From: a virus
DNA: 64,000 nucleotides
Virus genome (UHGV): UHGV-1351772
Strand: one strand, 5' to 3'
Positions 3,681 to 46,293 of the stretch are shown here, in pieces; the first letter of the stretch is position 1, and each line of letters starts with the position of its first letter. The notes under the pieces are model-generated. The model searched no databases and was not told the DNA's origin. It was given only the letters and a program-made list of their open reading frames with translations. The translations under genes were made by a program, and so were the position numbers.

Positions 3681-3756
3681 TGGCGGGGGTGGGAAGTTTC
3701 GAACTCCCAACCTTCGGTTTTGGAGACCGCTGCACCACCAATTGTGCTACACCCCC
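3681..3756 (-). tRNA. tRNA-Trp: tRNA-Trp (anticodon CCA), 76 nt with encoded CCA end
   Basis: manual cloverleaf fold of the minus-strand sequence GGGGGTGTAGCAC...CACCCCCGCCA: 7-bp acceptor stem, D-stem GCAC/GTGC with G18G19, anticodon loop CU-CCA-AA, T-arm GGGAG-TTCGAAA-CTTCC, discriminator G. Confidence 0.85.
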
Positions 3757-22402: not shown

Positions 22403-22954
22403 TTACTGCACGCACAAAATCTGACCTGAGTATTCGAAGGGATTTTCTGCGAATGTTCTGAGTTGTCGACAAATGGCGTCAACGTCAGGCTCATCCGTCC
22501 GCGTATAGATCGCGGTCCCGTTCTTTAACACCCACTCACGGCAATTCCGGCCATAGTCATCCACTAACAATCTCCCCTTATCAGCGTAAGTCGCTTTTTC
22601 TGCAGAGTTTGTGGTTACGATAACTTTGTGACCAGGCACACCAAAGTGTTTCTCGAAGAATAATTTTTTACACTCAACAACACGGTCGTGATCGAAATGG
22701 TCTTCCGAACCCGACGTTAATATCGCCCAGCATTCCCCCAGACTTTCTACCGTTTCGAGGATTTTTGCGGCCTCGGGTATAGGGTCTAGTTTATAGAAAA
22801 GATCCGGGTCCTTTAAATACATTTCCCGGACCAGTGCACGGCGGTGCAATTCCGGCATTCCATGAAATTCTTGTATGGACATTCCTTGAAAGTGGTGGGT
22901 CAGCACGTATTTGCGCCAACTTGCGAATACGCCGTCACTATCTAAATTGAACAT
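22403..22954 (-). CDS. HAD-superfamily 5'(3')-deoxyribonucleotidase-like protein
   Basis: N-terminal HAD motif I LDSDGV (DxDG[VT]) at residues 4-9. Confidence 0.55.
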   Translation of the reverse strand: MFNLDSDGVFASWRKYVLTHHFQGMSIQEFHGMPELHRRALVREMYLKDPDLFYKLDPIPEAAKILETVESLGECWAILTSGSEDHFDHDRVVECKKLFFEKHFGVPGHKVIVTTNSAEKATYADKGRLLVDDYGRNCREWVLKNGTAIYTRTDEPDVDAICRQLRTFAENPFEYSGQILCVQ

Positions 22955-27388: not shown

Positions 27389-30300
27389 TTATTTAAGTGT
27401 CGCGGGTAAATCAGGCACAGCCTCCCCATCGAGTATACGCCCGATGAGAATCCCGGCTTGTTCACCTACAGCATTCGCGGTACCGATACGTTGGATTGAA
27501 CCTACGATACGCGCATCGACGGAATCACGACCGAACAACACGTCCAGGTCATCACCATCCTCTGTTTTGTTGTCGCCGTACATGACTTCTTGTACGGTGG
27601 TTTTTAGCTGGTTAGCAATAACCATCTTATCCGCAGCGGCCATCTCAACGTCGTGTGTAATAAAGAATCGAACACAAAGTGAGTTAAAGGCCAAGGGTAC
27701 ACCTTCAACACGGTAGTCGCCGTTTACACTGCCTGAAACCGGATCACCGCGTCCGACTGCCAGTGCGGCCTTACGACGAATTCTGTCGTATTTACGCACC
27801 AGTTCAGCAAGACTTGGTGTCATGTCTTCGGTTTCACCGTGATACACCACTTCGATTTTATCCACGATACCACGTACCCCTGCACGAGGTGCGTACGAAC
27901 TTAAACTTTGCAACGTTGCGGCTGCTTCCTGACTAAAGGCACTCATATCGCCTGTCAAGTCGTCAGTAAACGTGCATAGGATTGTGTCGACGTCTACGTG
28001 GTCGCCCTCATTCACGATTTCCAAAAGCATTTGGTTGCTGTTAATCGTTACTTCTTTCAGCTTTGTTACCTGCCCCACCATTTTCTTCGCGAACCGTTCA
28101 GAAATTGCGTTGGAGTCTTCGATAACTTCTTCAGCTTCTAATAAAGCAACGGTAGCCAGCACCCCGTTTTTCCAGGAAACCTGAGTAGGATCGTAAATAT
28201 CAGGTTCAAAGTGTTGCTCGTTATACGTAATCACTGCTCCGGCCGGGAGCTTGTCACCGGCTTTCCAGCGTGTTACCAAGGTGTGCGGATAGAAGGTACC
28301 TTCGTGGGGGCCGAACCAGCGCCCTAGAGGAAAGGCTTCTTTACTTCCATCTTCGTACGTAATTTCAATGTGGTCTTTCGACAGACCAGTAATCTTACCT
28401 GCTTTATCAATAACGCGTGCATGTTTCACCGACGTACGGTGTGCGACGAATTTCTCCTGTTCAGTACGGTACGGGGTTGTGGTTGCCCCATTACAACTGG
28501 TGGCAGAACCTAACTGAATCCCAACGAAGTTTTGACGCTTTGCGTCGTCCATTAACGTATCGGGTACTAACCCGTCAATAAACGAAAGGGTATCGCTTGG
28601 TTTCGGGGTTTTCTCTTCACGTTTAAACGTAGTACCGTCAACGGTGTCAAAACGTGGGTTATTGGTGACGAAAGCAGTAATACCTACGTCGCCGTTATCT
28701 ACGGTGTTACCCGAGACTATCCCGATATCGCTGGGTTGGAACTCACGTGTGTGGTAGACCATCGTTTTACGATTACGACCACCTGTACCCCCCATCGTAA
28801 TAACGTCTTTTTCTTTAATTGACTGGATAGGGTTAGCACCTGGTGCCAAAAGTACCGACGGGTCGGAGTTAATTGCACCCCAAACCATGTCTTGCGTCAG
28901 TTCGAACTTACGGTTACTGCCCGGTGCGTTATTGTAGTTACGCATCGCTCTGACCATCGCGGTATAGATGTGGTAGGCAATCCTCTGATTTCCTAAGAAC
29001 ATCATTTCATCGCCGTTAATCTCTGGTAAAGAGTGGTCAGTTTGTAACAGTTCGTTAGAACGTTCCAGCAAGCCAATAAAGGTTTCCGGCTCACCCATTT
29101 TCCTGAGGATACGTGCGTGCATGTCGTCAACAAACGCGGACCGCATCTGTTTCAGCTCGTTGATGTACCGTGGTGTTAGGCCATCTGCATCACGTAATAA
29201 GTTCAGGTAAATGTCTTCACGGTCTGCTTCTGATTCGGTATAAGCAACCAGGTGTTTGAGATAACGATCCAAACCATGCAGAATCATCTTCTGTTGATCG
29301 TTATCGCAAGTAACTAAAAGTTTACAGTCTTGTAGTCGAATAATGCTGTCGTAGGCATTCTTATCAACACGTTGCCCTGCGGGAACCAACTCGTATTGGA
29401 TACCGAAATGTTTCAACATTCCCTGGAGTCCAAGATAGAACGAGAAGATAAAACCAAGCGACAAAGATTTACCCATCAAAGACAGCTCGGTCATTTCGCG
29501 AGGCACTTTCTGGTTATTAAAGCCCAGTACCTCTGCGATAGTTCCCACCGGTTCAACTTTGTTTCCGTTCACACCGTAAAGCATGGATTTGTCATCCATT
29601 GCCAGGATTGTTTCACTACGCGGACGTTTCGCCACCGGCAAAAGTTTGGCAGCATCGGCGTCTCTGAGTTGCTCGTCGTTAAAGAAGTTAACGGCTTCTT
29701 TGTAGTCGAAGTTCCACATATAGCCGTTCGCATTAAAGCTGGCAATACGACGCGCAATCTCCGTATACTGACGCGGCAGATGTTGCGTAGGATCGAACAC
29801 ATTTGCTAAACGTGCGTCGGTGACTTCGGTGTTTGTCGGGTCAACGGCGCGTGTGATGATCGCATTGGTTAACCAACGACCGTAGTCGTTTGCGACCTTA
29901 TCACTACGACGGACAAAGTTTTTACCGTAAGCGGTAGTCAGTGCGACAGTATCCGGTGCAACCTTACGGATCGGTAAGTCCACACGTTGCCGACGCATGG
30001 TGTATTCGACACCATTAGCGACCCAGGTACCGTCTTCGGTCAAGCCTGGGATGGAGAAGCGAACGGTTGTTGGTTCACCACCGACTGGCTGAACACGTAA
30101 AGTGTGGTGCTCGATAGTCCCTGTAACAGAAACCTCTTTTTCCACCGTGTGGTTGTGAACTGCCAGACCCAAACGTTGTGAGCTGGCGACCGCCGCCAGT
30201 ACGTCCTTCGTCATCATGGTCTGGTTGTACTGTTTCACCATCTGGTCGGTGACGTTCTCTGCCCACCCTTCATCAGTAACAAGTCGCTGAACTTTTTTCG

Positions 30301-31555
30301 GTTCGGCTTTAACGACAATATCTTTCTCGTGAACAGTCAGTGCTTCCCCGTAGGTTTCTTTCGGGTTATACGGGTTAGGTAACTGAACGAAACGTTTAGA
30401 CGATTCTGACAGGAACTGATATGCTTTAGAACTTAAGCGGCCCGCTTCAGCTAAGCGTTGTGCTTCCTGTTTAATAATCTCGTCATGCGGAATGACTTTC
30501 TCGACGACGATAGTCGTCGGTTTGACGTCTTCCTTCGGTTCTTCAATAACAACGTCTTCTTTTTCATCGAAGGTGTTATCGGATTCGACCACAGCGTCAT
30601 TAACAACGTCGTCATCATCGACAACATCAACGGTTTCTTCTTCGACGTCTTTAAGGAAAACACGCTCGTCGCCTTCAGGCGTTAGGAATTCCGCTTCGTA
30701 CGCGTTAGACGGTGCTTGTGTCATTACACGCACCAGCGTACGGTAGAACATCCTGGCCATTTGGTCGTCACTTAAACGACCGCCGGATGACTTACGCATT
30801 TTCTCTACAACACCCATGTTCATGGACGTAAAGCCCGTGTTGTGGGTGAAGATAAAGTTCATTCGTGACAGCTGAGTTAAATCCATTCCCGCGAATAAGG
30901 AATCGGATTGTTTTCCATAAGCCCAAGCAAACAACTCCAATAACCACAGCAAGTTGAAGTCCTGGAACTTCTCAATCTTACTCTTAACGCGATCGTTATA
31001 GGTTGTTTGAAACTTCTGGAACGAAGGTAGAGTCGAACCTAGTTCAATAACGAAATAGTTCTGACGCATGTATTCTTGCGTGTCGTATTTGAACTGGTTA
31101 ATCATCAACAGTTGGATGTTACGCAGTCTATCGTACCAGGCTAACTGGGTATCAGGATAGTAATAGTGCGATAGCATCGGTGTGTAGTTCTCGACCAGGA
31201 GAACTTTTAAGTCTTTGCGAACCAGATCGTCTGAGGTAAGACGACGCATCGGTCGGTTTGCACGGTGGTAAGCAAAGATAGCACGTTCTTGCCCCTGAAC
31301 AGGTTTGTTGCGCGGATGACCGCTAATACCGTCTTCCGGTAATTTAAAGTGGTGACGAACCTGTGCAGGTTTTTCTAACGGTTGAATAATCTCGAGTGTT
31401 GCAGGTGGCGCTAACACCACCTGGTCGAGATCAATGACATGGAGTACAGAACCACGTGGTATCTGTAGCTTCTCGAGCGGGATAATCCTCGGATTACCAA
31501 ACTCGTCAGTTTTACGCACCGAGAAGCGTTGGTTAAACTGTTTAATGAGCAGCAT
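27389..31555 (-). CDS. large protein (1388 aa), tentative partner subunit of a phage multisubunit RNA polymerase (beta- or beta-prime-C-like), contains an acidic low-complexity insert
   Basis: located 9 nt downstream of the beta-prime-N-like gene; weak GDK-containing stretch reminiscent of the beta subunit; otherwise unassigned. Confidence 0.55.
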   Translation of the reverse strand: MLLIKQFNQRFSVRKTDEFGNPRIIPLEKLQIPRGSVLHVIDLDQVVLAPPATLEIIQPLEKPAQVRHHFKLPEDGISGHPRNKPVQGQERAIFAYHRANRPMRRLTSDDLVRKDLKVLLVENYTPMLSHYYYPDTQLAWYDRLRNIQLLMINQFKYDTQEYMRQNYFVIELGSTLPSFQKFQTTYNDRVKSKIEKFQDFNLLWLLELFAWAYGKQSDSLFAGMDLTQLSRMNFIFTHNTGFTSMNMGVVEKMRKSSGGRLSDDQMARMFYRTLVRVMTQAPSNAYEAEFLTPEGDERVFLKDVEEETVDVVDDDDVVNDAVVESDNTFDEKEDVVIEEPKEDVKPTTIVVEKVIPHDEIIKQEAQRLAEAGRLSSKAYQFLSESSKRFVQLPNPYNPKETYGEALTVHEKDIVVKAEPKKVQRLVTDEGWAENVTDQMVKQYNQTMMTKDVLAAVASSQRLGLAVHNHTVEKEVSVTGTIEHHTLRVQPVGGEPTTVRFSIPGLTEDGTWVANGVEYTMRRQRVDLPIRKVAPDTVALTTAYGKNFVRRSDKVANDYGRWLTNAIITRAVDPTNTEVTDARLANVFDPTQHLPRQYTEIARRIASFNANGYMWNFDYKEAVNFFNDEQLRDADAAKLLPVAKRPRSETILAMDDKSMLYGVNGNKVEPVGTIAEVLGFNNQKVPREMTELSLMGKSLSLGFIFSFYLGLQGMLKHFGIQYELVPAGQRVDKNAYDSIIRLQDCKLLVTCDNDQQKMILHGLDRYLKHLVAYTESEADREDIYLNLLRDADGLTPRYINELKQMRSAFVDDMHARILRKMGEPETFIGLLERSNELLQTDHSLPEINGDEMMFLGNQRIAYHIYTAMVRAMRNYNNAPGSNRKFELTQDMVWGAINSDPSVLLAPGANPIQSIKEKDVITMGGTGGRNRKTMVYHTREFQPSDIGIVSGNTVDNGDVGITAFVTNNPRFDTVDGTTFKREEKTPKPSDTLSFIDGLVPDTLMDDAKRQNFVGIQLGSATSCNGATTTPYRTEQEKFVAHRTSVKHARVIDKAGKITGLSKDHIEITYEDGSKEAFPLGRWFGPHEGTFYPHTLVTRWKAGDKLPAGAVITYNEQHFEPDIYDPTQVSWKNGVLATVALLEAEEVIEDSNAISERFAKKMVGQVTKLKEVTINSNQMLLEIVNEGDHVDVDTILCTFTDDLTGDMSAFSQEAAATLQSLSSYAPRAGVRGIVDKIEVVYHGETEDMTPSLAELVRKYDRIRRKAALAVGRGDPVSGSVNGDYRVEGVPLAFNSLCVRFFITHDVEMAAADKMVIANQLKTTVQEVMYGDNKTEDGDDLDVLFGRDSVDARIVGSIQRIGTANAVGEQAGILIGRILDGEAVPDLPATLK

Positions 31556-43192: not shown

Positions 43193-44023
43193 TTATTTCG
43201 CCAGATCTGCTTCTTTTACAAAGATACCGTCGGCGTTCAGATAACCTTTACGGTCTTTGATTTCGTGCCAGGCCAAAGAGAAACAATGGCGAATGTTAAG
43301 ACGATAATAGAGAGCGAGTCGCGCAAGACGATGTAAAGCCCAACCTAACGTAACAGTACCCAGTTCAGTACGTAAGAACGCAGTAGCGAAGATTTCGGTA
43401 GCCTCTAAATACAACTGGTGTGGATATTTGGTATCGTTTAAACGTTCTTCAACGTCAGCGACATCATCTACCTGCAATTGTAAACCGCGTTCGATGACTT
43501 CAGCGGTTGTCATTCCGCCAGTCACTCTGTCCTTATCCAGTTCCAGGATGTTTACCAGAACCACCAACGCATCGCCGATGCCGTCCATGATCAGTTCAGG
43601 TTTGTTTTTGCTGATACCTGTTGCAATCTCACCAAATTCTTCATAGAACTTTGTGATTTGAGTTTCCAGTTTACCGTTGTCGAGAATACCACGTTCTTTA
43701 GACCAACCTTTAACACGTTCTACACAGTTTTCAATAGAGTAGACCGGAACAGATTCTGTATGCATTACCGTGCCGTTGTAAACAGCATCGGTAAGCTTAA
43801 TAGGCGCTACAATTGTTTCGATGTCCAGTTCTTGATTACCGGTGTGACGTTTACCTTCTACACGAATACGGTTGGTACCAGGGTTTACACCAATTGTGTA
43901 AATAGCATCGAACTGTACTGCATTCTCATTCAGAGCGCGCAGTTGTGCGTTAACTTCTTCCAGGTGCTGACCAGGATTAACCACGATGTTGTAAATAGTG
44001 TTGATGTCAAAACGTTCGCCCAT
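43193..44023 (-). CDS. MazG-like nucleoside triphosphate pyrophosphohydrolase domain protein with about 100-aa N-terminal extension
   Basis: FYEEFGEIATG ... DGIGDALVVLVNILELD ... LAWHEIKDRKG pattern typical of the all-alpha MazG family. Confidence 0.6.
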   Translation of the reverse strand: MGERFDINTIYNIVVNPGQHLEEVNAQLRALNENAVQFDAIYTIGVNPGTNRIRVEGKRHTGNQELDIETIVAPIKLTDAVYNGTVMHTESVPVYSIENCVERVKGWSKERGILDNGKLETQITKFYEEFGEIATGISKNKPELIMDGIGDALVVLVNILELDKDRVTGGMTTAEVIERGLQLQVDDVADVEERLNDTKYPHQLYLEATEIFATAFLRTELGTVTLGWALHRLARLALYYRLNIRHCFSLAWHEIKDRKGYLNADGIFVKEADLAK

Positions 44024-45258: not shown

Positions 45259-46293
45259 TTAGACAGCTATGGGAGCTTTAATTGTGTCGTGCGATTGATA
45301 TCCAACCAATTCGAAGTCTTCGAATTTGTAATCGAAGATGGAATCAGGTTTACGTTTGATAACCAGTTTAGGTAGCGGGTAAGGTTCGCGAGTAAGTTGA
45401 AGTTTTGCCTGCTCCAGATGGTTAGAGTAAAGATGAACATCTACGCCACTATAAACCAACTCGTCTGGAACCATATTGAGTTGTTGAGCAATCATGTGAG
45501 TTAACAACGCGTAAGAAGCGACGTTAAACGGTGCGCCAAGTAGGTAATCGTTGCTCCGCATCATGTAAAAACACGAAAGTTTACGACGAGGGATACCTTC
45601 ACGATCTAAGGTTTCATGAAGTCGTTCTTCGTTATCGATATCTTCGTGGTTAATAAGCGGTGCGTTCGCAAACTTTTCCGGTTCGTTTACTTCGTACCAA
45701 TCCAGTCGTTCAAGCAACGTCATTTCTGTTGTGTAAAATTGGAAATAGTTGTGACATGGATTGAGTGCCATATCGTCCAGGTCACCTACATTCCAGGCAC
45801 TAACGATAATACGGCGGGAGTCAGGGTCTTCACGAAGTTGTTGGATAACTTTACTGATCTGGTCATGTGCTTTTTCATAAACCAAATACGTCGTACTATC
45901 TTCCTTCATATTCCCGATATACTTGTAACCCCGCTGCATTAGTTGTTGTGTACGTCTTACGTCATGACACTCCACAACTTTACAGTCGCGCCATTCCCGC
46001 CACTGGTGTCCGTAGACAGGACCTAAATTCCCTTCTTCATTCGCCCAAGCATCCCAGATTTTTACCCCGTTCTCTTGCAGGTACTTCACGTTAGTGTCAC
46101 CGTTTAAGAACCACAATAGTTCATGAATGATACTTTTCAGGTGAACCTTTTTCGTAGTAACTAATGGGAAACCTTCTTTCAGGTCAAAACGTAGTTGACG
46201 ACCAAATACAGAAAGTGTCCCTACACCTGTGCGGTCTTTCTTGACAACACCGTTATCCAGAATGTCTTGCATTAACGCTAAATACTGTTTCAT
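45259..46293 (-). CDS. thyA: thymidylate synthase family protein (ThyA-like, with two in-frame insertions)
   Basis: N- and C-termini align closely with E. coli ThyA from memory (MKQYL..DRTG.GTLS.FG ... PCH ... RSxD..LG.PFN.ASYALL ... IKRKP.SIFDY.FEDFE..GY); catalytic Cys in NPCH retained. Confidence 0.9.

What the first reader, a model, noticed from the sequence alone, without database searches (positions are those of the whole stretch)
45259..46293. Thymidylate synthase homolog carrying two in-frame insertions (about 35 and 45 aa)
The ends align almost residue-for-residue with E. coli ThyA as I recall it, and the catalytic Cys and the uracil-specifying RSND..PFN segment are retained. Two insertions interrupt the fold: one after GHQWREW and one after FQFY. 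The ThyA fold is also used by pyrimidine hydroxymethylases in phages with modified DNA, so the insertions could alter cofactor chemistry or mediate protein interactions.
Basis: partly seen in the sequence, partly recalled or inferred. Interest (0 to 1): 0.55.

Follow-up and report, generated by a model that had tools for sequence, protein, structure and literature searches.

The report
Phage thymidylate synthase with two inserts
This is an ordinary thymidylate synthase gene of an SPN3US-like jumbo phage, and its two extra segments are surface add-ons shared by related phage enzymes, so nothing suggests new chemistry or modified DNA.

Summary
The ORF lies on the minus strand (45259-46293, 344 aa) and is a full-length ThyA (Pfam E 4.7e-110). 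It has two in-frame insertions relative to E. coli ThyA: aa 103-142 (net +34) and aa 190-236 (net +46).

The suggestion of altered chemistry is not supported. Every catalytic, dUMP-binding and folate-binding residue is kept, including Asn257 (uracil specificity) and the C-terminus. The only changes are Q165M and E82A. The protein passes NCBIfam thymidylate-synthase equivalog cut-offs, and a 93%-identical complete phage genome encodes DHFR with no annotated thymidine-hypermodification genes.

Both insertions are typical of the lineage. They occur in SPN3US, Goslar, phiEaH2 and CR5, and by fold match in 201phi2-1 (TMq 0.93).
- **Insertion 1** is a beta-alpha-beta-beta unit that also occurs in a solved cellular TS (B. 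thailandensis, 3V8H). Some close relatives lack it.
- **Insertion 2** is a three-helix mini-domain that AlphaFold2 folds confidently on its own, with an invariant Arg and near-invariant Glu and Pro. It sits on the hairpin at the rim of the dimer interface, has no solved counterpart, and occurred only in phage-like contexts among those sampled.

Both insertions are under purifying selection. Their function is inferred only: most likely dimer buttressing or partner docking. Verdict: new member of a known kind, low to moderate interest.

The parts
45259..46293 (-). thyA coding sequence, 344 aa, canonical thymidylate synthase
   Evidence: ORF list; Pfam PF00303 E 4.7e-110; NCBIfam NF002499 414 bits against cut-off 405, TIGR03284 341 bits against cut-off 108; phrog_160 E 1.4e-117.
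45868..45987 (-). Insertion 1 (aa 103-142, DCKVVECH...LVYEKA): a beta-alpha-beta-beta surface unit at the classical variable site near Ec 104 (the site of 'eukaryotic insert 2')
   Evidence: Gap in the E. coli alignment. In the model it comprises strand 101-108, helix 112-120 and strands 124-131 and 134-143, with pLDDT above 95. It aligns without gaps to residues 114-162 of B. thailandensis TS 3V8H. The motif W-R-x-W-x-D-[TV]-[RK]-[IV]-[IV]...[RK]-G-[YF]...DQ is conserved in 45 sequences. It is absent in phages Stratton and Kwan. dN/dS is 0.083.
45583..45732 (-). Insertion 2 module (aa 188-237, TTEMTLLER...REGIPRR): a three-helix mini-domain on the beta-hairpin that follows FQFY
45706..45711 (-). 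Glu195-Arg196, the conserved pair at the start of the first helix of insertion 2
   Evidence: In the module alignment A3, R is invariant and E is at least 90% conserved across 47 diverse modules.
45589..45591 (-). Pro235 of the closing [IV]-P-[KR]-[RH] motif of insertion 2
   Evidence: At least 90% conserved in alignments A2 and A3.
45754..45756 (-). Catalytic nucleophile Cys180 (equivalent to E. coli C146)
   Evidence: Alignment A1, invariant column.
45523..45525 (-). Asn257 (equivalent to E. coli N177), the determinant of uracil over cytosine
   Evidence: Alignment A1.
45262..45276 (-). C-terminal APIAV (equivalent to E. coli APVAI), the tail that closes over the folate site
43193..44023 (-). 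Downstream neighbour: MazG-like nucleotide pyrophosphohydrolase (context, same strand)
   Evidence: phrog_7855 E 1.1e-74; 40% identical to SPN3US gp031 MazG.

Best explanation
The gene encodes the phage's own classical thymidylate synthase. Cys180 attacks C6 of dUMP, methylene-tetrahydrofolate supplies both the carbon and the hydride, and the products are dTMP and dihydrofolate. A phage DHFR encoded elsewhere in the genome recycles the dihydrofolate. The phage is an SPN3US-like (Seoulvirus-like, phiKZ-related) jumbo phage of Enterobacteria.

The two insertions are self-contained surface modules typical of this phage ThyA lineage. They do not change the chemistry. Insertion 1 is a beta-alpha-beta-beta unit at a classically variable loop. 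It also occurs in a cellular TS of known structure, and close relatives lack it. Insertion 2 is a three-helix mini-domain on a beta-hairpin stalk that AlphaFold2 folds confidently in isolation. It emerges immediately after Tyr187.

The equivalent human residue, Y202, lies at the solvent-accessible rim of the dimer interface. There it stacks on F59' and neighbours the partner subunit's K47'-T55' loop. By my own numbering offset, that loop is the one carrying the phosphate-binding Arg (E. coli R21). The most likely role of insertion 2 is therefore to buttress the obligate dimer or the partner's phosphate loop, or to provide a docking surface.

Shown here: the identity of the enzyme, the retained active site, the positions, fold, conservation and distribution of the modules, and purifying selection on them. 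Inferred: the enzyme activity and the role of insertion 2.
For: - **TS identity:**. All catalytic and binding residues are conserved across eight clade members.
- **Genome context:** DHFR is encoded in a complete genome whose thyA is 93% identical in DNA and 95% in protein (NZ_CP173450.1). No hypermodification genes are annotated there or found next to thyA in the window.
- **Clade-wide insertions:** tblastn places genes of the same length in SPN3US, Goslar, phiEaH2, CR5 and others at 53-64% identity (alignment). The 201phi2-1 TS model matches at TMq 0.93, rmsd 2.2.
- **Insertion 1 is also cellular:** 3V8H matches at TMq 0.80 with 46 query-only columns, which is about the size of insertion 2. 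Insertion 1 aligns to 3V8H without gaps.
- **Insertion 2 is widespread in phage-like contexts:** 124 of 152 aligned sequences carry it. All four representatives whose contigs I examined lie in phage-like gene neighbourhoods.
- **Fold:** the full model has pLDDT 95.7 and the isolated module 88.9.
- **Selection:** dN/dS is 0.083 for the core, 0.083 for insertion 1 and 0.021 for insertion 2.
- **Interface geometry** of the residue preceding insertion 2: PMC9831607.
Against: - No enzyme assay or nucleoside analysis exists for this protein.
- Q165, which orients N177 in E. coli TS (my own knowledge), is Met here and Ala in Goslar. The strand after insertion 2 is remodelled (QLYQ to FYMM). A subtle change in specificity therefore cannot be formally excluded.
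Contacts between insertion 2 and the partner subunit are inferred from published human TS geometry, not measured.
- The 150 representatives were ranked by score to a query that contains insertion 2, so the figure of 124 of 152 overstates its frequency among all ThyAs.
Confidence: 0.8

Rival explanations
1. Insertion 2 is mainly a docking module for other proteins. It would recruit the synthase into a phage nucleotide-synthesis assembly (with DHFR, the nucleotidase or MazG), or control where the enzyme sits relative to the phage nucleus. It would not be a dimer-stabilising element.
For: - The module is duplicated into a second loop in some phages (SA002; Kwan). This fits a selected binding surface better than a purely structural brace.
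- TS-GFP fusions are excluded from the nucleus of PhiPA3 (bioRxiv 10.1101/2021.04.26.441357), so localisation matters in this family.
- From my own knowledge: surface inserts of T4 TS were proposed to contact partners in the dNTP synthetase complex.
Against: - No partner has been identified. thyA and DHFR are about 95 kb apart.
- The module also occurs on contigs that do not look like nucleus-forming phages, for example L014 with queuosine-pathway genes and inteins. A role specific to the phage nucleus is therefore unlikely.
Confidence: 0.25
2. The insertions are passengers. They would be relics of mobile or selfish in-frame DNA, or of endonuclease domains that once nested in these loops, tolerated because they sit on the surface and have no function of their own.
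For: - The same loops (near Ec 84 and Ec 104) host in-frame domains of 180-282 aa matching phage 'HNH endonuclease' families in other phage ThyAs (phrog_2081, E 5e-45 and 1e-25).
- thyA is a known target of mobile introns, and a group I intron interrupts a relative.
- Insertion 1 is present in phiEaH2 but absent in Stratton, which is the same species.
- The insertion-2 type module appears at three different loops.
Against: - Both insertions are under purifying selection as strong as the core.
- Insertion 2 has an invariant Arg and near-invariant Glu and Pro across very divergent sequences, and it is present in every clade member aligned.
- There are no flanking repeats, palindromes or composition shifts in the DNA.
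- Neither module profile hits any other gene in the window or in 339 kb of related loci.
Confidence: 0.12
3. The enzyme is a pyrimidine hydroxymethylase or otherwise has altered one-carbon chemistry, and it feeds a modified thymidine into the phage DNA.
For: - The ThyA fold is used by dCMP and dUMP hydroxymethylases (own knowledge; also noted in PMC7824862).
- Q165 is replaced by Met and the adjacent strand is remodelled.
- A MazG-like pyrophosphohydrolase and an NT5C-type nucleotidase are encoded nearby. Such enzymes sometimes accompany nucleotide-pool editing.
Against: - N177, Y94, W80, W83, E58, H147, D169 and the closing C-terminal tail are all retained.
- The score exceeds the TS equivalog cut-offs, and the core is about 65% identical to E. 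coli ThyA.
- DHFR is present in the related genome. It is needed only if dihydrofolate is produced.
- No hmdUMP kinase, glycosyltransferase or other hypermodification gene is annotated.
- dCMP hydroxymethylase models match far worse, at TMq about 0.5.
- SPN3US keeps Q165, so the Q165M change is not a feature of the insertion-bearing family.
Confidence: 0.04

Closest known systems
E. coli ThyA (for example PDB 2TSC, 1AOB, 1TYS)
   Same: Same fold (TM 0.96 normalised to the E. coli chain). About 65% identity over the 264 shared positions. All catalytic, dUMP-binding and folate-binding residues are identical except Q165 and E82.
   Different: Carries 34 and 46 extra residues at Ec 103-108 and Ec 156. 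The strand after insertion 2 is remodelled (QLYQ to FYMM).
Thymidylate synthases of SPN3US (gp037), Goslar (gp141), phiEaH2, CR5, Asesino, Caitlin, and 201phi2-1 (B3FJL1)
   Same: Same gene in a collinear genome region, with 53-64% identity. Insertion 2 is always present and insertion 1 usually is. The 201phi2-1 model matches at TMq 0.93.
   Different: The window protein is a new sequence with no near DNA match among deposited phages. It belongs to a roughly 222-kb lineage seen mainly in bacterial isolate assemblies. Relatives differ in the length of insertion 1, and some add a third module (Kwan) or larger inserts (Phabio, 201phi2-1).
Burkholderia thailandensis thymidylate synthase, PDB 3V8H (NCBIfam NF010393 / PRK13821 type)
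   Same: Has an insertion of the same length at the same site, with the same motif as insertion 1 (WRRWPGYKVLDAH...RGFRIV...KAIDQL). It is the solved structure that covers the most of the query: TMq 0.80, rmsd 2.4.
   Different: Lacks insertion 2 (46 query-only columns). The window protein scores 233 bits against that family's 576-bit cut-off, so it is not a member of that family.
Classical TS length variants: the L. casei 50-aa small-domain insert, the eukaryotic inserts of human TS, and phage T4 Td
   Same: These insertions lie in the same two variable loops (near Ec 84 and Ec 104) that vary in the phage family. T4 Td inserts were proposed to mediate contacts in the dNTP synthetase complex (own knowledge).
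   Different: None of these enzymes has anything at the Ec 155/156 hairpin, which is a tight turn in E. coli, L. casei, human and T4 TS (own knowledge of those sequences). No solved chain matches insertion 2.
dCMP hydroxymethylase (T4 gp42) and dUMP hydroxymethylases of hypermodifying phages
   Same: Same superfamily fold (ranks 29-43).
   Different: Much more distant (TMq about 0.5, 13-17% identity). The window protein keeps Asn at the specificity position and the TS C-terminus. The related genome has DHFR and no annotated downstream modification genes.

Membership tests
Thymidylate synthase ThyA (EC 2.1.1.45; PF00303, TIGR03284, NF002499) | Whole-protein match above curated model cut-offs | tested here: met
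   PF00303 367 bits against 24.3; NF002499 414.1 against 405; NF002497 396.7 against 327; TIGR03284 341.3 against 108.35.
Thymidylate synthase ThyA (EC 2.1.1.45; PF00303, TIGR03284, NF002499) | Catalytic Cys in the P-C-H motif, plus the E58/H147/Y94 proton-transfer network | tested here: met
   C180, H181, E58 and Y94 are invariant in alignment A1.
Thymidylate synthase ThyA (EC 2.1.1.45; PF00303, TIGR03284, NF002499) | dUMP phosphate site (R21, R166, S167, R126', R127') and Asn177 for uracil recognition | tested here: met
   R21, R246, S247, R160, R161 and N257 are present. The supporting Q165 is Met.
Thymidylate synthase ThyA (EC 2.1.1.45; PF00303, TIGR03284, NF002499) | Folate site and closing C-terminus (I79, W80, W83, D169, G173, F176, V262-A263-I264) | tested here: met
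   I79, W80, W83, D249, G253, F256 and the C-terminal I342-A343-V344 are present.
Thymidylate synthase ThyA (EC 2.1.1.45; PF00303, TIGR03284, NF002499) | Produces dTMP plus dihydrofolate; obligate homodimer | not testable with these tools
   Indirect support only: DHFR is encoded in the closely related complete genome. The interface residues F30 and Y187 are conserved.
Burkholderia-type ThyA (NCBIfam NF010393 / PRK13821; PDB 3V8H) | Whole-protein score above the family cut-off of 576 bits | tested here: not met
   233.5 bits. Only the insertion-1 module is shared.
dCMP hydroxymethylase (T4 gp42 type) | Asp in place of Asn177 for cytosine recognition; no TS-type closing C-terminus (own knowledge of the family) | tested here: not met
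   N257 and the APIAV terminus are retained. gp42-type models match at TMq about 0.5.
dUMP hydroxymethylase of thymidine-hypermodifying phages | Co-occurrence with hmdUMP kinase and DNA-level modification enzymes; hmdUMP as the product | tested here: inconclusive
   No such genes are annotated in the related complete genome or found near thyA, and DHFR is present. Most genes there are 'hypothetical', and the product cannot be assayed.
Intein or group I intron interrupting thyA | Hint-domain splicing motifs and at least about 130 aa (intein); a ribozyme core detectable by Rfam RF00028 (intron) | tested here: not met
   The inserts are 40 and 47 aa with no Pfam hit. Rfam finds only a tRNA in the window. 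The same search does detect an intron in a relative's thyA.
In-frame selfish repeat elements (Rickettsia RPE-like) | Multiple copies in unrelated genes of the genome; palindromic or repeat structure in the DNA | tested here: not met
   Module profiles hit only thyA in the window and in 339 kb of related loci. No repeats or composition anomaly.

The most novel reading that the evidence does not exclude
Insertion 2 would be an undescribed, phage-specific 'cassette': a three-helix mini-domain of about 45 aa that folds on its own, with the signature T-x-x-E-R ... L-D-x-x-x-[IV]-P-[KR]-[RH]. It would have been copied repeatedly into three different surface loops of ThyA (near Ec 155, Ec 84 and Ec 104), and it would give phage thymidylate synthases a specific function that cellular enzymes lack. 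Candidate functions are clamping the obligate dimer next to the partner's phosphate loop, or docking the enzyme into a cytoplasmic nucleotide factory. On this reading, the same loops in related phages also act as landing sites for in-frame endonuclease-like domains, which would make ThyA a hotspot for domain-level as well as intron-level mobile insertions.
Probability: 0.25. Interest if true: 0.5.

Novelty: new member of a known kind. Interest (0 to 1): 0.25.

Why it matters
For this window it matters little. The gene is a normal nucleotide-metabolism gene of a Seoulvirus-like jumbo phage, and the insertions give no reason to expect modified DNA.

The wider pattern may interest people who work on protein evolution or thymidylate synthase. 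A conserved three-helix module that folds on its own sits at the rim of the TS dimer interface, a region being explored as a drug site in human TS (PMC9831607). It is under purifying selection and has been duplicated into other loops. No structure or functional study of it turned up in the PDB copy or the literature searched. A structure of one of these enzymes would show whether phages have added a dimer clamp or a docking handle to an otherwise very conserved enzyme.

Tried and rejected
- **Selfish in-frame DNA:** no direct or inverted repeats at the insert borders and no GC shift. The module profiles hit no other ORF in the window or in 339 kb of related loci.
- **Intein or intron:** the inserts are too short, have no Pfam hit and no Rfam hit in the window.
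- **Module-only profile against the 5.8-billion-protein database:** nothing reached significance. A 50-aa profile is too weak for that search space, so ThyA-specificity is shown only locally.
- **AFDB50 fold search:** the library was not available, so I could not check for cellular proteins with insertion 2 by fold.
- **Chimallin check:** the accession that the preprint gives for SPN3US chimallin maps to a 240-aa 'virion structural protein' in NC_027402.1. I therefore did not verify chimallin in the window. Family placement rests on collinearity with SPN3US, including the split RNA polymerase beta genes.
- **Geometry:** model coordinates are not exposed, so I could not measure contacts of E195, R196 or P235, or model the dimer. 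I used published human TS geometry instead.
- **Literature:** searches for a description of these insertions found none.

Full report
**1. The observation**

The region 45259-46293 holds a single long ORF on the minus strand: ATG start, TAA stop, 344 aa. Its start overlaps the stop of the upstream ORF by 4 nt. Pfam's Thymidylat_synt model is matched end to end (E 4.7e-110). PHROGs gives phrog_160, thymidylate synthase (E 1.4e-117).

Against solved E. coli ThyA chains the protein aligns in three collinear blocks: 1-102 = Ec 1-102, 143-189 = Ec 109-155, and 237-344 = Ec 157-264. There are therefore two in-frame insertions.
- Insertion 1 is aa 103-142. It replaces Ec 103-108, a net gain of 34 residues.
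- Insertion 2 is aa 190-236. It replaces Ec D156, a net gain of 46 residues.

The two gains sum to the 80-residue length difference. Only the strand was left unstated.

**2. What genome this is**

No deposited phage matches the gene at the DNA level beyond a 228-nt stretch. By tblastn the best relatives are the thymidylate synthases of SPN3US-like, Goslar-like and phiEaH2- or CR5-like jumbo phages, at 53-64% identity with essentially the same gene length.

The window is collinear with SPN3US 191-232 kb at 36-89% amino-acid identity. The shared genes include the split RNA polymerase beta genes, the prohead protease and the tail sheath.

Proteins 94-99% identical occur on contigs of about 220-226 kb in Shigella, Salmonella and E. 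coli isolate assemblies. One such record is a circular 221,873-bp 'plasmid' of E. coli 98232, which is plainly a complete jumbo-phage genome. This matches the 'Seoul-like persistent jumbo phages' already described in bacterial assemblies (bioRxiv 10.1101/2024.12.31.630880).

**3. Is it a real thymidylate synthase?**

All residues known to be needed for the TS reaction are present and invariant across eight clade members:
- phosphate site: R21, R126'/R127' (R160/R161), R166 and S167;
- nucleophile and proton network: C146 (C180), H147, E58 and Y94;
- folate site: I79, W80, W83, D169, G173 and F176;
- uracil recognition: N177 (N257);
- deoxyribose 3'-OH contacts: H207 and Y209;
- the closing C-terminus.

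The exceptions are Q165 to Met (Ala in Goslar, Gln in SPN3US) and E82 to Ala in this variant only. The protein exceeds the curated cut-offs of three NCBIfam TS equivalog models. Its core is about 65% identical to E. coli ThyA.

The related complete genome encodes a dihydrofolate reductase, which is needed only if dihydrofolate is produced. No hmdUMP kinase, glycosyltransferase or similar gene is annotated there. The immediate neighbours in the window are a MazG-like pyrophosphohydrolase and small proteins of unknown function. Models of dCMP hydroxymethylases match far less well (TMq about 0.5). The hydroxymethylase reading is therefore not supported, although activity cannot be assayed here.

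**4. Anatomy of the insertions**

An AlphaFold2 model built on an 83-sequence alignment is confident throughout (mean pLDDT 95.7, pTM 0.93). It dips to about 63 only at residues 211-220.

Insertion 1 forms a strand (101-108), a helix (112-120) and two strands (124-131, 134-143). Insertion 2 forms helices 193-203, 205-210, 216-220 and 222-231.

**5. Distribution of insertion 1**

The solved B. thailandensis TS (3V8H) covers more of the model than E. coli TS does (TMq 0.80 against 0.74), leaving 46 query-only columns, about the size of insertion 2. Its residues 114-162 align without gaps to the insertion-1 segment.

Forty-five sequences, including 3V8H and Serratia phage BF, share the motif W-R-x-W-x-D-[TV]-[RK]-[IV]-[IV] ... 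[RK]-G-[YF] ... DQ. Erwinia phages Stratton and Kwan lack insertion 1 entirely, although Stratton is the same species as phiEaH2, which has it.

Insertion 1 is thus a recurring module at the classical variable loop, where human TS carries its 'eukaryotic insert 2' by my own numbering. It also occurs in cellular enzymes and is naturally dispensable.

**6. Distribution of insertion 2**

It is present in every SPN3US-clade enzyme aligned and, judging by the fold match, in 201phi2-1 TS (TMq 0.93). An exhaustive HMMER search of 1.84 billion cluster representatives returned 150 best hits of 256-588 aa. Aligned to E. coli ThyA together with the window protein (152 sequences), 124 have an insertion of at least 8 aa at Ec 155. 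This ranking is biased toward proteins that resemble the query.

The module has a clear signature: Y-T-[RE]-[EP]-[LM]-[TS]-x-x-E-R, then 25-60 variable residues, then [LF]-D-x-x-x-[IV]-P-[KR]-[RH]. The Arg is invariant, and the Glu and Pro are at least 90% conserved, in 47 diverse modules.

The four representatives whose contigs I examined lie in phage-like neighbourhoods. No NCBIfam TS model matched here has the extra length, and no PDB chain matches the module. Serratia phage BF has insertion 1 but not insertion 2, so the two modules are distributed independently.

**7. Selection**

Against the copy in the E. coli 98232 record (92.6% DNA identity), dN/dS is 0.083 for the core, 0.083 for insertion 1 and 0.021 for insertion 2. 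The insertion counts are small, with two nonsynonymous differences each. All 120 close relatives are exactly 344 aa long. Both modules are maintained by purifying selection in this lineage.

**8. A cassette-like behaviour**

A profile of insertion 2, with flanks removed, also matches inserts at other ThyA loops. Eight of 140 insert segments at the Ec 84 and Ec 104 sites score at least 10 bits, up to 20.1. None of 700 shuffled controls does so (maximum 8.8).

Kwan carries an extra copy at the Ec 84 site. Salmonella jumbo phage SA002 carries two copies, and the second-site copy hits its own insertion 2 best (42.5% identity over 40 aa, E 3.5e-5). That indicates an intragenic duplication.

The profiles hit nothing but thyA in the window or in 339 kb of related loci, which include nearly the whole related phage genome. 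The DNA shows no repeats or composition shift at the borders. This argues against a generic selfish element and for a ThyA-specific module.

**9. How insertion 2 probably works (inference)**

The residue immediately before it, Tyr187, corresponds to E. coli Y153 and human Y202. In human TS, Y202 lies at the accessible perimeter of the monomer-monomer interface. It stacks on F59' of the partner, and residue 202 neighbours D173 and R175 of its own chain and K47', T55' and D254' of the partner (PMC9831607). By the numbering offset (my own mapping), the K47'-T55' loop is the one carrying the phosphate-binding Arg (E. coli R21), and F59' corresponds to F30, which is invariant here.

A rigid helical mini-domain growing out of this hairpin is therefore well placed to brace the obligate dimer or the partner's phosphate loop, or to present a docking surface. 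I rank the structural-brace reading slightly above the docking reading, but neither is shown.

A role specific to the phage nucleus is unlikely. The module also occurs on contigs that do not resemble nucleus-forming phages, and TS-GFP is simply excluded from the nucleus in PhiPA3.

**10. Comparison with what is known, and verdict**

The protein is a member of the ThyA family by every testable criterion. It is not a member of the Burkholderia-type subfamily (233 bits against a 576-bit cut-off), although it shares that subfamily's insertion. It is not a hydroxymethylase by the features that can be tested.

Orthologues with the same insertions are already annotated as thymidylate synthase in dozens of deposited jumbo-phage genomes. 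I found no paper that describes the insertions.

The finding is therefore a correct observation of an ordinary enzyme: a new member of a known kind. The residual interest lies in insertion 2 as an unstudied, conserved, duplicable module at the TS dimer rim. It also lies in the broader pattern that phage ThyA loops collect in-frame modules, endonuclease-like domains and introns.

Noticed in passing
whole window; related record NZ_CP173450.1 (L001, L015-L019): The window belongs to a jumbo-phage lineage of about 222 kb that is seen mostly inside bacterial isolate assemblies (Shigella, Salmonella, E. coli, Enterobacter), sometimes deposited as a circular 'plasmid'. This matches the 'Seoul-like persistent jumbo phages' of bioRxiv 10.1101/2024.12.31.630880. 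The PGAP record has no annotated plasmid functions.
   Followed up: partly
proteins P0129, P0140, P0142, P0150, P0182, P0232, P0131, P0149 (Ec 104 site) and P0121, P0202 (Ec 84 site); loci L012:10001-11683, L014:8568-10232: Other phage ThyAs carry in-frame inserts of 180-282 aa in the same two loops. These share the motif W..M..RCYD..Y..YGG.G..V..W..F..F..D...LDKDYFG and match phage 'HNH endonuclease' families (phrog_2081, E 5e-45 and 1e-25). They have no intein motifs and no Rfam intron hit. The same endonuclease-like domain appears nested in-frame at two different loops. Its flanking strands resemble the first and last strands of insertion 1.
   Followed up: partly
L010:301-1452 (Salmonella phage SA002 ThyA); L006:301-1419 (Erwinia phage Kwan ThyA): SA002 and Kwan each carry a second copy of the insertion-2 type module, in the Ec 84 loop. 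In SA002 the second copy is most similar to the protein's own insertion 2 (42.5% over 40 aa), which indicates an intragenic duplication into another loop.
   Followed up: yes
L011:10921-11251: On a metagenomic SPN3US-like contig, thyA is split into ORFs of 316 and 95 aa by a group I intron (RF00028, 57.1 bits). By position, the break falls near the conserved LSCQLYQRS active-site strand, reminiscent of the T4 td intron.
   Followed up: partly
L004 against L007 (phiEaH2 against Stratton, same species Erskinevirus EaH2): Two phages of one species differ by presence or absence of insertion 1 (342 against 305 aa), and their insertion-2 sequences also differ markedly. This suggests recent recombination or replacement within thyA.
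   Followed up: no
window 45550-45585 (aa 237-248, strand after insertion 2): There is a lineage-specific cluster of substitutions in the normally invariant interface and active-site strand: E. coli SCQLYQRSCD becomes [10 protein letters not shown] here, including Q165M. Goslar has SCMLLARSQD, while SPN3US keeps SCQLYQRSAD. This may be co-adaptation with insertion 2, but its effect on catalysis is unknown.
   Followed up: partly
window 43193-44023 (-), 22403-22954 (-); related genome 97030-97566: The annotated nucleotide-metabolism set of this phage comprises ThyA, DHFR, a MazG-like pyrophosphohydrolase (two-domain, phrog_7855) and an NT5C-type 5'-deoxyribonucleotidase. No ribonucleotide reductase or thymidylate kinase is annotated. 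The related genome also has a Dam-type methylase and two adjacent radical SAM proteins (28603-30724) of unknown role.
   Followed up: no
window 3681-3756 (-): There is a single tRNA gene. ARAGORN calls it tRNA-Trp (CCA). The related E. coli record annotates a tRNA-Ile in what, judging by the neighbouring genes, seems the corresponding region (150822-150896). I did not compare the two sequences.
   Followed up: no
NC_027402.1 220023-220745 (L020:16024-16746): The accession that the persistent-phage preprint cites for SPN3US chimallin (YP_009153538) is a 240-aa 'virion structural protein' in the RefSeq record, far too small for chimallin. I therefore could not use it to confirm chimallin in the window.
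   Followed up: no
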